From Candidatus Parcubacteria bacterium (lineage in GTDB: Bacteria; Patescibacteriota; Minisyncoccia; Phycocordibacterales; GCA-2747955), in assembly GCA_027039745.1 (NCBI GenBank), contig JALUMP010000114.1:1-26523 (forward strand): a stretch of DNA of 26,523 nucleotides, read 5' to 3'. Positions 7,918-18,182 of this stretch are shown here, piece by piece. A program made the translations under genes and the position numbers. The notes beneath the pieces were generated by a model that was given only the letters and a program-made list of their open reading frames with translations, had not been told where the DNA came from and did not search any database. Numbering within the stretch: the stretch's first letter is position 1; each line of letters starts with the position of its first letter.

Positions 7918-8112
7918 TTAACCATTTACAAATGGAATCAAAGCCATAAAACGTGCTCTTTTGATTGCTTTTTCTACTTTTTTTTGATTTTTAGCAGAAA
8001 GACCTGTGTGTTTTCTAGCAATAATTCTTCCGTATGGATTTAAAAATTTATTGATGAATTCTAAATCTTTATAGTCAACGTGATTTATTTTATTATTATC
8101 TATTTTTTTCAT
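7918..8112 (-). CDS. rpsR: 30S ribosomal protein bS18, 64 aa, Cys-free (non-zinc) type
   Basis: [50 protein letters not shown]; conserved rpsF-ssb-rpsR order. Confidence 0.97.
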
Positions 8113-8286: not shown

Positions 8287-8745
8287 CTAGAAGGGTATAT
8301 CTTCAGGGTTAATATCTTCTTCAGGATACTTAATCTCCTCACTCTTCCCCTCAGTTTGAGGCCCTTGAGCTTGTTGTTGTGGTGCTTGGTTGTAGTTTCC
8401 AGCAGAAGCTCCTCCTGGTTTTAGACCAAACTCAAATTTGTCCATAATAATTTCAGTTCGATACATTTTTTTACCACTTCCTTGATCTTCCCAAGACCTT
8501 GTTTGTAGTCTACCCTCTACATAAATTTCTTGCCCCTTAACAAAATATTGAGCAACTATCTCTGCTTGTTTACCAAAAGTTACAATATTGTGAAACTCTG
8601 TTGTTTCAACCTTACTTCCCTGTTGGTCTTTATAAGTATAATTAGTAGCTACAGAAAAATTTAAAACTTTTGTGCCACCATTTGTAGTTTTAAGTTCTAA
8701 ATCTTGAGTAATCCTACCGATTATCATTGCTTTGTTTAAATTCAT
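8287..8745 (-). CDS. ssb: Single-stranded DNA-binding protein, 152 aa
   Basis: MNLNKAMIIGRITQDLELKTT, VEGRLQTRSW, acidic tail ending DIPF; TAG stop. Confidence 0.98.
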   Translation of the reverse strand: MNLNKAMIIGRITQDLELKTTNGGTKVLNFSVATNYTYKDQQGSKVETTEFHNIVTFGKQAEIVAQYFVKGQEIYVEGRLQTRSWEDQGSGKKMYRTEIIMDKFEFGLKPGGASAGNYNQAPQQQAQGPQTEGKSEEIKYPEEDINPEDIPF

Positions 8746-8772: not shown

Positions 8773-9498
8773 TTATTCTCCTCCGTTTAATTCGTCTTGT
8801 AATACTTTTAACTCATCTCATTTTTCGTCACGAGCAAGTCTAGCTTGTTTTGACCAAGATTTTGGGTCATATCTTTTAAGCCCAGCCTCTTCTAAAATGT
8901 CTCTCAAGTCTCCAACTTTTGAACCAGCTAAATCAACGTAAGTTGAAATATCTTTAGCATTCAACGCTTCTACTGTTTTTGGGCCAATACCCTCTATTTT
9001 TGTTAAATCATCTGCTTCAGAGCTTTTTGGAGCCCCTTCAGCCTCTTTTTCAACGACCTCTTCTTTTACTTCTTCTTTCTTAACTTCCTTTTTAACTTCC
9101 TCTTTTTTTTCTTCCTCAACCTCTTCTTCAGATTCCTCTTCAGATTCTACTTGAAATTTATTAGTCTCTGAATCATCTGCCACAGTTTTGACAATAAGAT
9201 ATCTAAAAATATCTTTTTTAACATTATCAACTGCTTTTTTAAGTGCATCAATATCTGAAGGAGCAGCTTCAAACTTTATTCAAGTAAAAAAAGCTTTATC
9301 AAATCTTTCATTAATTGATGCTATTTTGGTAATTATTTGATAAGCAAGATCAACATCTACAATCTCACCTTCGGAAATTACAGAAGCGTTTATCTTTGTT
9401 AAAAAACCTTTTAGTTTTTCAACTACTTTTTCAACCTTCTGTTGTGACAAATCAGGGTTTATCAACACCCCAATTTCGTAAATATTATTATTATTCAT
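8773..9498 (-). CDS. rpsF: 30S ribosomal protein bS6 fused to Glu/Lys-rich linker and helix-hairpin-helix (HHH_5/DUF4332-like) domain, 241 aa (table 4)
   Basis: ATG 9498; YEIGVLINPDL..LAYQI..FDKAFFT[TGA 9280-9282]IKFEA..IFRYLIVKT (S6) continues without TAA/TAG into ESEEESEEEVEEEKKEEV.. and DDLTKIEGIGPKTVEAL..DPKSWSKQARLARDEK[TGA 8818-8820]DELKVLQDELNGGE-TAA 8773-8775. Confidence 0.9.
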
Positions 9499-9578
9499 AA
9501 CGTTCGCTAGTATAGCATATTTCAACCTAAAGATAAATTACATAAAGGGCTCAAAGTATGTGCTAAAATAGCTTTTAT

Positions 9579-12470: not shown

Positions 12471-14444
12471 ATGGCAAAAATTACTCTAAACAAACAACAA
12501 TCAAAAGCTGCCAACACATTGTCAGGGCCTGTTTTAATACTTGCAGGAGCAGGAGCTGGAAAGACCATGACTTTAACAGCAAGAATCATAAAACTTATTT
12601 CTTCTGGAATTATGCCTCAAAATATTTTAGCGATTACTTTCACCAACAAAGCGGCTGGAGAAATGAGAGAAAGAATCACAAAAGCTATATCTAAAAACTC
12701 TAAAATAAATTTCTCTACTTTAGAGCTGGGTATGACACCTTTTGTCTCCACTTTTCACGCCTTAGGAGTTTTTATTATTAGAGAAAACCATCAGAAACTT
12801 GGTATATCAAAATATTTTTCTATCTACGATAGAGCAGATTCTAGAAAAGCTTTAAAAGAAGCCCTAAAGAAACTATCTCTTGACCCAAAAGAATGAGACT
12901 TAAGGATGCTTATTTCCGTAATTTCTAAAAACAAAGGAAATTTTTTAGATCATAAAAATTTTACAAAAATAGCTAAAAATAACTTTCACACAAAAACAAT
13001 TTCAGATATCTGAAATAAATATGAAGAAATAAAAAAAGAAGATAAAGCTCTTGATTTTGACGACCTCCTTTTAAAAACAGCACAATTATTAGATAATGAT
13101 AAAAGTATAAGAGAACATTACCAAAAAAAATGAAGCCATATCCATATAGACGAATACCAAGATACCAACAAAGTCCAAAATAAAATCGCAGAACTTTTAA
13201 CCAACCCAGAAACAAAAAATATTTTTGCTGTTGGTGATGATGACCAATCTGTATATGCATGAAGAGGATCTGACATAAAAAATATTTTAGATTTTGAAAA
13301 AAAACATAATGCCCATAAAATATTTATGGAGCAAAACTATCGTTCTTCTGGAAATATTATTGAAGCATCTAACGCTGTTATAGCGAAAAACAAAGACCGA
13401 TATCCTAAAAAACTTTTTACAGAAAGCCCCGCTGGAGAAGAGATAATCTTATACTCTTCTTTTTCAGAAAAAGAAGAAGCCCGTGCAATTGCTGCTAAAA
13501 TAAAAGAGAGATTAAAATATAATAAAAAAATAAATGAAAATGATATAGCAATTTTATATAGAGCTAATTTTCAATCACGAGTTTTAGAAGAAGCTATGCT
13601 TACAGAAAATATACCTTACCAAGTTTTAGGTACAAAATTTTTTGATAGAGCTGAAGTAAAAGATATTATGTCTTATATTAAAGCTTCTCAAAACCCAACC
13701 TCACTCGTTGACTTAAAAAGAATTATCAACTCTCCAAAAAGAGGTATTGGCAAAGTCTCGGTTGTAAAAATATTTTCTGGAGATACGTCAACACTTTCTG
13801 CAAAAGCTCAAACTTCTTACAAAGATTTTTTAAAAATCTTAGAAAAAATTAAACAATATTCTAAAAACCATACCCCATCAGAACTCATAAAATTTACTAT
13901 AAAAGAATCTGGTTTTGAAAAAATGTTTAAAAACCAAAAAACAGACGAGGCTAATGAAAGACTTGCCAACACTTACGAGCTTGCTTTGTTTGCTGAAAAA
14001 TACGATATTTTAGAAAAAGAAGAAGCTTTACTGAAATTTTTTGAGGATGTAGCACTAATCTCTGACCAAGATAGCAAAAAAGATAGCAAAAAAAAGCCCT
14101 CTGTAAAGCTAATGACTATCCACGCTTCAAAAGGACTTGAATTTGATACTGTATTTTTAACAGGGGCTGAAGAGCATTTTTTCTCTCCTTTAGAAACCGA
14201 AAGTTCTGAAAAAGAAGCTGAAAAAAAAGAAGAAGAAAGAAGACTTTTTTATGTAGCCATGACAAGAGCTAAAAATCTACTATTTATCTCATGGTCTGGT
14301 ATGCGAACAATCTACGGAAAAACAGAAACCAATGACTTAGTTTCTTTCGTACTTGATATTCCACATAACTTAATAAAAGAAGACTCAACCTTTCAAAATT
14401 TTAAAGACGACAATGACGATGAAATAGAGTATTTAGAATGGTAA
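12471..14444 (+). CDS. pcrA: ATP-dependent DNA helicase PcrA/UvrD, 657 aa (table 4)
   Basis: Walker [36 protein letters not shown][TGA 13131][22 protein letters not shown][TGA 13260][46 protein letters not shown]; other TGA at 12894 and 13011; ends TGG-TAA. Confidence 0.97.
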
Positions 14445-16634: not shown

Positions 16635-18182
16635 TTAATATTTTTTATCTTGTTTATGTTTTTCTCAATATGCCTTAATTTTTCTTCTAGCTGTATTAGT
16701 TTTTACAAAATCAAGTCATTTTAAATTTGGACTTTCATTTTTTCTTGATTCTAACTCTACTACATCACCATTTCTAAGCTCTGTATCTAATGATTTAAAA
16801 ATCCCATTAATTTTAGCTCCTACAATGGTATCCCCTAAACTACTGTGCACATAATATGCAAAATCCACAGGAGTAGAACCGACAGGTAAATCAATAACAT
16901 CACCAATTGGTGTAAAAGCAAAAATTCTATCTGAAAAAAAATCATCTTTTAGTCTTGTTTCAAAATCAAAAGCTTCGGGGTTATCGGAATGCTCTGCAAG
17001 CTCTTGTATTCATTTGATCTTATTCTTTTTATCATCTTTTCCGACTTCCTGCTTCTTAGAAAAAACTCTAAAAACTTTTGAGACTCAATCAGAATCTTGA
17101 GAATTATATTTTAATCCCATTTGTTTAGCTTTATAACCTAAATGCGAAGCTGCCCCATACTCAGCTTCAGCATGCATTTTGTCAGTTCTTATTTGCACCT
17201 CAACAACACCACCATGTCCTGTAAAAATTGTAGTATGAATTGACTGATAACCATTTGGTTTTGGTAAAGCAATATAGTCCTTAATTCTTCCCGCCATTGG
17301 TTTAAAGTTTTTATGAATCACCCCCAAAACTTTATAACAATCACCAACTGTTGGTACAATTATTCTCAACGCAATAATATCATATACATTTTCAGCATGT
17401 CACTTTTTTTTAATTAATTTTTTATATAGTGATACTATGGCCTTTGTTCTACTTGTTAATTTAAATTTTTTTATTTTAGCGGCAACCAACTTTTTTGTAA
17501 TTGATCGACTGACCTGCTCTAAATTCCTTTTATTTTCCTTTGATCTTTCTTTCAAAATATTTCTTATTTTTCTATATTTTTCTGGAAAAACATATTTAAA
17601 AGATAAATCACCTAAAGCCTTTGATAAAGTAGTAATCCCTAACCTATAAGCAAGTTGTGTATAAATTTCTAATGATTCTGTAGCAATTCTTATTTGTTTC
17701 TCACGTGGTAAAAAATCTAATGTTGTTAAATTGTGCAATCTATCTGCAAATTTAATAATAAGAACTCTAATATCTTGAGATGTCGCAACAAAAAGTTTTC
17801 TCAACGATTCGTTATGTCTACGCATTCCACGATATTTAATGTGCCCTAATTTTGTAACTCCTTCCACTAGAAATAATATTTCTACTCCAAAAACTTTTTC
17901 AATCTCTTCTCTCGTTGCTGCTCCATCTTCTATAGAATCATGCAAAAGACCAGCAGAAATCACAATCCCATCCATTCCTAAATTAGATAAGTTTTGTGCT
18001 GTTGCAACTAAATGATAAAAATAAGGGTCTCCAGACTGTCTTACTTGCCCTTCATGTTTACTTTTAGCAAATAAGTAAGCTTTTTTTATAATTTCACGAT
18101 CTTTTTTGGTTAATTCGAGATTTAAATTAAAAATACTTTCTAATGAAAAATCTTTCTTTTTTTTATCGTTAGACGCTGTCAT
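16635..18182 (-). CDS. rel: RelA/SpoT homolog (HD hydrolase + synthetase + TGS), 515 aa (table 4)
   Basis: HEGQVRQSGDPYFYH, GLLHDSIED, IKFADRLHN, YDIIALRII, RIKDYIALPKPNGYQSIHT, EVQIRT, AEYGAASH, TGS FAFTPIGDVIDLPVGSTPVDFAY; TGA at 17400, 17085, 17010 (K-W-IQEL), 16716 (PNLK-W-LDFVKT), 16665; TAA 16635-16637. Confidence 0.95.

What the first reader, a model, noticed from the sequence alone, without database searches (positions are those of the whole stretch)
8773..9498. Ribosomal protein bS6 fused to an acidic linker and a helix-hairpin-helix domain
Seen: one 241-aa frame with an S6 domain (~105 aa), a Glu/Lys-rich low-complexity linker, and a domain DDLTKIEGIGPK...TY.DLA...W.KQA.LA..KW.EL..LQ.EL.GG; both TGA sites sit at Trp positions of the respective families. 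Established: this HhH-type domain is known as a C-terminal add-on of other ribosomal proteins (e.g. bL21, uS2) in some bacteria; S6 and S18 form the 30S platform, and in Bacteroidota bS6/bS18/bS21 sequester the anti-SD. Inference: an extra nucleic-acid-binding arm on the platform may matter for SD-independent or leaderless initiation in this organism. The fusion is invisible under table 11.
Basis: partly seen in the sequence, partly recalled or inferred. Interest (0 to 1): 0.6.

Follow-up and report, generated by a model that had tools for sequence, protein, structure and literature searches.

The report
Ribosomal protein S6 with tethered HhH tail
This tiny uncultured bacterium's only gene for ribosomal protein S6 really does carry a floppy acidic linker and a small helix-hairpin-helix domain, but the same untested add-on sits on many other ribosomal and membrane proteins, so this is one more example of a widespread tag.

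Summary
On the minus strand, 8773-9498 is one 241-codon frame: a bS6 domain, a disordered Glu/Lys linker of about 47 residues, and an 80-residue (HhH)2-type tail. It is intact only if UGA is read as Trp. Both UGA codons fall on Trp positions that are conserved and TGG-encoded in standard-code kin.

It is the genome's only S6 gene and lies in the usual rpsF-ssb-rpsR row. It is not unique:
- S6-tail fusions occur in 9 of 12 sampled genomes of its family, in a second Paceibacterota lineage and in Saprospiraceae.
- 56 of the 120 best protein clusters share the architecture.
- The tail family has about 6,100 clusters, on L32, L20, L27, L17, L21, S2, S5, S16, S1, NuoE, membrane anchors and the phasin PhaH.

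This scan already met the same tail on L27, L13 and L3 in other genomes.

The tail is acidic, hops between ribosomal proteins, and is missing from S6 in close kin.

The only characterised relative, the Caulobacter PhaH tail, binds DNA non-specifically. My best guess, at about 40%, is therefore a tether to the nucleoid or other nucleic acid. Protein docking is the main rival.

UGA=Trp in this group was published in 2026.

The parts
8773..9498 (-). Complete rpsF (bS6) coding sequence: 241 codons plus a TAA stop, read with UGA=Trp
   Evidence: It is the only PF01250 match in the genome.
9169..9486 (-). bS6 core domain (about residues 5-110)
   Evidence: Pfam PF01250, E 4.7e-11. AF2 pLDDT is above 90, with the strand-helix order expected for S6.
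9280..9282 (-). In-frame TGA, codon 73, read as Trp
   Evidence: The column is at least 90% Trp in 35 homologues. It is TGG in G003, G006 and G010.
9022..9162 (-). Disordered Glu/Lys-rich linker (residues 113-159)
   Evidence: pLDDT is below 50. Composition is E20 K10 V7 of 47 residues. Among homologues the linker is 29-75 aa long and only 23% identical on average.
8779..9021 (-). C-terminal (HhH)2-type tail domain (residues 160-240), with a canonical hairpin E-G-I-G-P-K at residues 169-174
   Evidence: Pfam HHH_5, E 3.5e-6. The tail-only model has pLDDT 89.6 and five helices. Fold neighbours are (HhH)2 domains with Z 6-8. There are 6,118 related clusters.
8818..8820 (-). In-frame TGA, codon 227, read as Trp (the motif K-W-D-E-L)
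   Evidence: Trp is invariant in A1 and A2. It is TGG in standard-code kin.
8287..8745 (-). ssb, directly downstream of rpsF
   Evidence: Pfam SSB, E 4e-35.
7918..8112 (-). rpsR (bS18), which completes the usual rpsF-ssb-rpsR row
   Evidence: Pfam Ribosomal_S18, E 6.7e-22.

Best explanation
This is the organism's single, functional bS6 gene, translated with UGA=Trp. It is a natural fusion. An ordinary S6 core enters the 30S platform. S6's usual acidic C-terminal extension has become a disordered leash of about 47 residues. At its end hangs a compact five-helix (HhH)2 domain. That domain belongs to a very large family of tethered tails, found at the C-termini of many ribosomal proteins, NuoE, small membrane anchors and the phasin PhaH. 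These points are shown. What follows is inferred. The tail acts as a generic docking module whose exact attachment point on the ribosome does not matter. By homology with the only tested member, the PhaH tail of Caulobacter, it most likely binds double-stranded nucleic acid non-specifically through its canonical G-I-G-P-K hairpin. This would keep ribosomes near the nucleoid or nascent transcripts. I put the identity at about 0.97 and this mechanism at about 0.4.
For: Identity: the Pfam S6 and HHH_5 hits, the sole S6 in the genome, the rpsF-ssb-rpsR context, and two confident domains joined by a disordered linker. Selection: the tail is more conserved than the S6 core (62% against 47% mean identity to the query; linker 23%), and the hairpin residues E169, G170, G172, P173 and W215, Q218, A222, W227, L230, Q234 are invariant. 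A generic, position-independent role: the same tail is on L32, L27, L17, L21, S2, S5, S16 and S1 and on L32 and L20 in the same family. In G006 the S6 and L20 tails are 99.1% identical over 232 bp of DNA, which indicates recent copying or gene conversion. S6-tail fusions also arose in Saprospiraceae. DNA binding: there is a local hit to the NCBIfam PhaH model NF045508 (E 2.9e-8), and a review states that the PhaH HhH domain binds DNA non-specifically and positions PHB granules on the nucleoid (PMC13052382). The hairpin keeps the Gly-hydrophobic-Gly-Pro-Lys form of DNA-binding HhH motifs. Many family members carry 2-10 tandem tails, as expected for multivalent binding to a polymer. Fold neighbours include the Rad51/RadA N-terminal domain and polymerase HhH domains.
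Against: The tail is acidic (net -5, pI 4.7; family mean -4.3, range -15 to +1), which is unusual for a nucleic-acid binder. In S6 the linker is also strongly acidic. The closest small solved domains include NusA AR2 (Z 6.4, 31% identity), which binds protein, not DNA. No structural match stands out (all Z below 8; Foldseek E above 0.4). I did not read the primary PhaH paper, so whether its basic linker contributes to DNA binding is unknown to me. Nothing here tests binding directly.
Confidence: 0.45

Rival explanations
1. The tail is a protein-protein docking module, like the acidic (HhH)2 repeats of NusA. It binds a conserved protein partner. One candidate is the co-occurring membrane-anchored paralogue, which would hold ribosomes at the membrane. 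Another is the RNA polymerase alpha-CTD.
For: The tail is acidic throughout the family. NusA AR2 is among the best structural and sequence neighbours, and SAM-type oligomerisation domains appear at Z 4-5. All 10 tail-bearing genomes among the 12 sampled in family f1 that carry a ribosomal tail also encode a conserved single-pass membrane protein with a distinct tail subtype: the one in G000 lies at C10:14547-15110, with its tail predicted cytoplasmic by the positive-inside rule. The same pairing is seen in G443, Kriegella, Pricia and Cocleimonas. In alphaproteobacteria, membrane proteins Urf1/protein-O carry the tail on the cytoplasmic side (PMC12079452, PMC13066640).
Against: The hairpin is the canonical DNA-binding G-h-G-P-K, which NusA AR domains lack. 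The one tested homologue binds DNA. The co-occurrence is among kin and is not an independent test. G002 has the membrane form only, and Maribacter sp. X9 showed no single-pass membrane form.
Confidence: 0.25
2. One reading: the tail is an extra mRNA- or rRNA-binding arm placed specifically on the 30S platform to help Shine-Dalgarno-independent or leaderless initiation.
For: S6 sits on the platform next to S18. A 47-residue leash could reach the mRNA exit side.
Against: The tail sits on proteins of both subunits, far from the platform, and on non-ribosomal proteins. Close kin have S6 without the tail: G002, G004 and G008, with the tail on L32 in G004. None of the other 29 families sampled in the order has it on S6. 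Bacteroidota and proteobacteria of very different initiation biology carry it. The domain is acidic.
Confidence: 0.08
3. The tail has no ribosome-linked role. Abundant proteins merely serve as carriers that supply it in high copy, possibly with release by proteolysis in the linker, or the fusion is a near-neutral passenger spread by domain shuffling.
For: The carriers are diverse but all are abundant cytoplasm-facing assemblies. The tail moves and is copied between genes. The linker is long, variable and unstructured.
Against: The tail is under stronger constraint than the S6 core. It is always C-terminal on a leash. It is kept on the only S6 copy in 9 of 12 family genomes.
Confidence: 0.1
4. 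Artefact: two genes joined by a lost stop codon, a chimeric assembly, or a wrong genetic code.
For: Under table 11 the frame is broken twice. The source is a 179-contig metagenome-assembled genome.
Against: The same fusion is found without any in-frame TGA in standard-code relatives (G003, G006, G007, G010) and in 56 listed protein clusters. UGA=Trp is supported across the window and is published for this group (PMC13695967).
Confidence: 0.01

Closest known systems
Long-form bL21 and uS2 'unknown domain fusion' proteins (NCBIfam NF008915/NF008916 = PRK12278; NF008966 = PRK12311)
   Same: A ribosomal protein core, then a low-complexity charged linker, then the same C-terminal HhH tail. Local hits reach E 8.5e-8 and 8.9e-6. 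The tails of S2 and L21 proteins align with 49-58% identity.
   Different: The carrier here is bS6. The linker is acidic (Glu/Lys) rather than Ala/Lys/Pro-rich and basic. The host is a Patescibacteria genome that reads UGA as Trp.
Caulobacter crescentus phasin PhaH (NCBIfam NF045508; Salinas et al. 2023, Mol Microbiol 120:307, cited from PMC12678847 and PMC13052382)
   Same: A homologous C-terminal HhH tail (local hit E 2.9e-8). It is the only family member with a tested function: non-specific DNA binding that ties a large cytoplasmic body to the nucleoid.
   Different: The N-terminal part of PhaH binds PHB granules and is not a ribosomal protein. The primary paper was not read here. It is untested whether this acidic tail binds DNA.
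Urf1 / protein-O / protein-3h of purple bacteria (PDB 9WQV chain a, 8YY9 chain O) and the NuoE C-terminal extension (NF009040)
   Same: The best PDB sequence matches (E 0.0036 and 0.046) fall in their C-terminal 'compact domain'. Their authors call its function obscure (PMC12079452) or unknown (PMC13066640).
   Different: These are membrane-anchored or complex I proteins. The tail is invisible in the maps, so no experimental structure of the domain exists.
NusA acidic repeat AR2 and other (HhH)2 domains (Rad51/RadA N-terminal domain, POLQ C-terminal HhH)
   Same: A five-helix (HhH)2 fold: VIA-align Z 6.4 with 31% identity to 2jzb_B, Z 6.1 to Rad51 and Z 7.9 to POLQ. The tail is acidic like NusA AR2.
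   Different: Sequence similarity is marginal (phmmer E about 0.1). The tail has a canonical G-I-G-P-K hairpin and an extra Trp-rich C-terminal helix pair. It is not a member of any of these families.

Membership tests
Ribosomal protein bS6 (Pfam PF01250; NCBIfam TIGR00166) | Sequence match above the family threshold | tested here: met
   PF01250 scores 43.2 bits against a cut-off of 27. TIGR00166 scores 37.4 bits, below its equivalog cut-off of 42.9; this is a divergent but clear match.
Ribosomal protein bS6 (Pfam PF01250; NCBIfam TIGR00166) | Sole copy in the genome, in the rpsF-ssb-rpsR context | tested here: met
   There is one PF01250 match in the 90%-complete genome. SSB and S18 lie directly downstream.
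Ribosomal protein bS6 (Pfam PF01250; NCBIfam TIGR00166) | Incorporation into the 30S subunit | not testable with these tools
   This needs ribosome proteomics or cryo-EM.
HHH_5 helix-hairpin-helix domain (Pfam PF14520) | Sequence match above the gathering score, with a Gly-hydrophobic-Gly hairpin | tested here: met
   27.8 bits against a cut-off of 27 at residues 163-201. E169, G170, G172 and P173 are invariant.
Tethered HhH tail of long-form ribosomal proteins (PRK12278/PRK12311 type) | C-terminal position after a low-complexity linker; the motifs D-D-L-x-K-I-E-G-I-G-P-K and W-x-x-Q-A ... K-W-D-E-L ... L-Q-D-x-L-x-G-G | tested here: met
   Alignments A1 and A2, the NCBIfam local hits, and 6,118 related clusters.
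Phasin PhaH (NF045508) | Full-length match including the granule-binding N-terminal part | tested here: not met
   34.2 bits against a cut-off of 250, and only the tail aligns. This protein is homologous in the tail but is not a PhaH.
Phasin PhaH (NF045508) | Non-specific DNA binding by the HhH tail | not testable with these tools
   Known for PhaH from the literature (PMC13052382). It needs a binding assay here.
DUF4332 (Pfam PF14229) | Sequence match | tested here: not met
   There is no PF14229 hit at E up to 1 for this protein, although some homologues carry the annotation.
NusA acidic repeat (AR2) | Significant sequence or fold match, and a NusA context | tested here: inconclusive
   phmmer E about 0.1; Z 6.4 with rmsd 2.9 over 65 residues, which is within the background range for small helical domains. 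There is no NusA core.

The most novel reading that the evidence does not exclude
The ribosome-borne tails (here on bS6) and the conserved single-pass membrane protein carrying a sister tail form one positioning system. Through a shared ligand (DNA) or direct tail-tail contact, they fix where ribosomes sit relative to the nucleoid and the membrane. In ultra-small cells with few ribosomes, this would secure co-transcriptional translation of leaderless mRNAs or even partitioning of ribosomes at division. That would be an undescribed, widespread layer of bacterial ribosome organisation.
Probability: 0.2. Interest if true: 0.75.

Novelty: new member of a known kind. Interest (0 to 1): 0.38.

Why it matters
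The tail is one of the commonest unexplained add-ons on bacterial ribosomal proteins. It has thousands of clusters across many phyla, is more conserved than its carriers, and is actively copied between them. I found no study testing what it does on a ribosome. A published survey of CPR ribosomes only notes that bS6 is 'large' and that such regions are uncharacterised (PMC9297842). The S6 case adds three things. It shows that the tail tolerates an acidic leash. It is the sole S6 of a minimal genome, so it must be compatible with normal ribosome function. And it travels with a membrane-anchored sister protein. As a single locus it is ordinary for its lineage. The value lies in the family-wide question, which can be tested in culturable carriers such as Caulobacter and marine Flavobacteriaceae.

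Tried and rejected
- Plus-strand translation of the given interval gives nonsense; the gene is on the minus strand.
- Code 25 (UGA=Gly) is rejected. Both sites are conserved Trp, TGG in kin, and the UvrD and RelA motifs need Trp.
- No tRNA with a UCA anticodon was found in the 90%-complete assembly. The decoding tRNA is therefore not identified.
- The PDB sequence search gave only weak hits whose tail is unresolved in the maps.
- Foldseek against PDB gave no hit with E below 0.4. The wide VIA-align search gave only generic (HhH)2 and SAM-like neighbours with Z below 8.
- The ESM Atlas feature search returned only 'hypothetical / HHH_5 / DUF4332' clusters.
The homodimer job on the window's own tail returned 'no answer' (score 0.00) and counts neither for nor against binding.
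- Literature searches for DUF4332, HHH_5 with ribosomal proteins, and 'unknown domain fusion protein' found no functional study of the ribosomal tails.
- The 16S 3' end is not in the assembly, so the anti-SD sequence could not be inspected.
- The consensus promoter scan did not list a promoter next to the rpsF start. The -10-like box I mention is my own reading of the sequence.

Full report
**What is there.** The interval 8773-9498 makes no sense on the plus strand. On the minus strand under table 4 it is one open frame of 241 codons ending in TAA. Pfam finds Ribosomal_S6 at residues 7-104 (E 4.7e-11) and HHH_5 at 163-201 (E 3.5e-6). An AlphaFold2 model built on 35 homologues gives two confident domains (residues 1-110 and 160-238, pLDDT above 90). 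They are joined by a segment, 113-159, with pLDDT below 50. That segment has 20 Glu, 10 Lys and 7 Val in 47 residues. The gene is the only S6 match in the 872-kb, 28.6% G+C, 90%-complete assembly. It heads the usual rpsF-ssb-rpsR row.

**Genetic code.** The frame holds two TGA codons: codon 73 (9280-9282) and codon 227 (8818-8820).
- In an alignment of 35 S6-tail fusions, the first column is at least 90% Trp and the second is invariant Trp.
- Relatives without in-frame TGA (G003, G006, G010) use TGG there.
- Elsewhere in the window, TGA falls on the Trp of the UvrD helicase motif III and on conserved Trp positions of RelA/SpoT.
- No RF2 reached its cut-off, and no tRNA-UCA was found.
- Under table 11 the gene splits into an 81-aa and a 121-aa ORF.

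UGA-to-Trp in the Patescibacteriota class Minisyncoccia (family JAKLIH01 and genus GCA-2747955) was reported in 2026 (PMC13695967, PMC13092985). The code itself is therefore not new. Within the window's genus, G000, G001, G002 and G004 show in-frame TGA, while G003 and G005 do not in these genes.

**How common is the fusion.**
- A search of 5.8 billion protein clusters returned 468 hits. Of the best 120, 56 carry both PF01250 and PF14520. Some are named by NCBI as S6 of Candidatus Pacebacteria, Campbellbacteria or 'Patescibacteria group'.
- Among 40 relatives, the S6-tail fusion is present in 9 of 12 genomes of the window's family. G009 and G011 are cut by contig ends, but the tail has begun. 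It is absent from S6 in G002, G004 and G008.
- None of the other 29 families sampled in the order has it; their S6 ends in an acidic extension only.
- An even sample of 400 genomes of the phylum held no further S6-tail fusion, and held the tail itself in one other family only.
- A scan of one genome per species found full-length S6-tail loci in about a dozen Paceibacterota-type MAGs and in two Saprospiraceae MAGs, confirmed by Pfam.

The architecture is thus lineage-typical and recurrent, not unique, and not phylum-wide.

**The tail as a family.**
- The same 80-residue module, with the motifs D-D-L-T-K-I-E-G-I-G-P-K and K-W-D-E-L...L-Q-D-E-L-x-G-G, ends L32, L27, L17, L21, S2, S5, S16 and S1 proteins and L20.
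- A full scan of 1.84 billion representatives found 6,118 clusters at E up to 1e-3 and 2,402 at E up to 1e-10. Many hold 2-10 tandem copies.
- NCBIfam places the tail with long bL21, long uS2, NuoE and the phasin PhaH.
- The best PDB sequence hits are Urf1/protein-3h and protein-O of purple bacteria. Their C-terminal domain is not resolved, and its function is called obscure or unknown.
- A survey of CPR ribosomes lists bS6 among proteins that are larger in CPR and leaves the extra regions uncharacterised.

**Properties that bear on function.**
- The tail is more conserved than its carrier: 62% against 47% mean identity to the query. The linker is 23% identical and 29-75 residues long.
- Tail and carrier histories disagree. 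A second lineage has S6 cores only 31-37% identical to this one, but tails 62-72% identical. Some closer S6 cores (65-69%) carry a different tail subtype (43-48%).
- In G006 the tails of S6 and L20, on different contigs, are 99.1% identical over 232 bp of DNA. Tails are therefore copied or converted between ribosomal genes.
- The tail is acidic: net -5 here, mean -4.3, range -15 to +1 over 110 tails.
- The tail-only model (pLDDT 89.6) is a five-helix (HhH)2-like domain. Its neighbours are generic: POLQ HhH (Z 7.9), NusA AR2 (Z 6.4, 31% identity), Rad51 N-terminal domain (Z 6.1), and SAM domains at Z 4-5. None stands out.

**A recurrent companion.** The window's genome has exactly one other tail, at C10:14547-15110. 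It belongs to a 188-residue protein with one N-terminal transmembrane helix, a charged linker and a distinct tail subtype. By the positive-inside rule the tail faces the cytoplasm. Orthologues of this membrane protein are present in all 10 tail-bearing genomes among the 12 sampled in the family that have a ribosomal tail, and in G002, which has none. Comparable single-pass, tail-bearing proteins accompany ribosomal tails in G443, Kriegella, Pricia and Cocleimonas, but were not seen in Maribacter sp. X9. These genomes are kin or few in number, so this is a lead, not a test.

**Mechanism.** The one tested family member is Caulobacter PhaH. Its HhH domain binds DNA non-specifically and keeps PHB granules spread along the nucleoid (PMC13052382; the primary paper is cited in PMC12678847 and was not read). 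Three other features point the same way: the canonical hairpin, the tandem arrays and the indifference to attachment site. Together they make a non-specific nucleic-acid or nucleoid tether the most likely role, at about 0.4. The acidity and the likeness to NusA AR2 keep a protein-docking role alive, at about 0.25. That rival includes contact with the membrane paralogue.

rpsF does have a TGCTATACT box 10 nt before its ATG and no SD-like sequence. The homodimer job gave no verdict.

**Verdict.** This is a new member of a known but functionally untested kind. Earlier agents of this scan reported the same tail on L27, L13 and L3 in other genomes, with the same open question.

Noticed in passing
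window-wide; e.g. 9280-9282, 8818-8820, and the TGA codons in 12471-14444 and 16635-18182: The genome reads UGA as Trp. No RF2 scored above the cut-off and no tRNA-UCA was found in the 90%-complete assembly. Within the same genus, G001, G002 and G004 also show in-frame TGA, but G003 and G005 do not in the genes examined, so the code boundary may run inside the genus. UGA=Trp in Minisyncoccia is already published (PMC13695967, PMC13092985).
   Followed up: partly
G000 contig C10:14547-15110 (+), locus L109:1048-1611: This is the only other copy of the tail in this genome. It is a 188-aa single-pass membrane protein with a charged linker and a distinct, conserved tail subtype. Orthologues occur in 11 of the 12 sampled family genomes (G000 included), and similar proteins occur in Flavobacteriaceae and Cocleimonas.
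   Followed up: partly
L007:1959-2190 against L099:935-1166 (genome G006): The tails of S6 and of L20 in one genome are 99.1% identical over 232 bp of DNA, on different contigs. This indicates recent duplication or gene conversion of the tail between ribosomal protein genes.
   Followed up: partly
window 9509-9517 (-): An extended -10-like box, TGCTATACT, lies 10 nt upstream of the rpsF ATG, and no Shine-Dalgarno-like sequence lies between them. The consensus promoter scan did not list it.
   Followed up: no
proteins P0125-P0136 and others: Proteins of 400-1,200 residues carry 4-10 tandem copies of the tail. I did not examine their N-terminal parts.
   Followed up: no
L123:292-1710, L125:286-1704, L122:247-1707 (Maribacter, Kriegella, Pricia): A polytopic membrane protein of about 473-487 residues, with 4-5 predicted helices, ends in a divergent tail variant (...G-I-G-P...D-D-W-A-G-Q-A). 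I did not identify its family.
   Followed up: no
L035 and L025: Tail-encoding loci are also recorded in a MAG labelled Nanoarchaeia and in an Absconditabacterales MAG. The first may be a binning error or a transfer.
   Followed up: no
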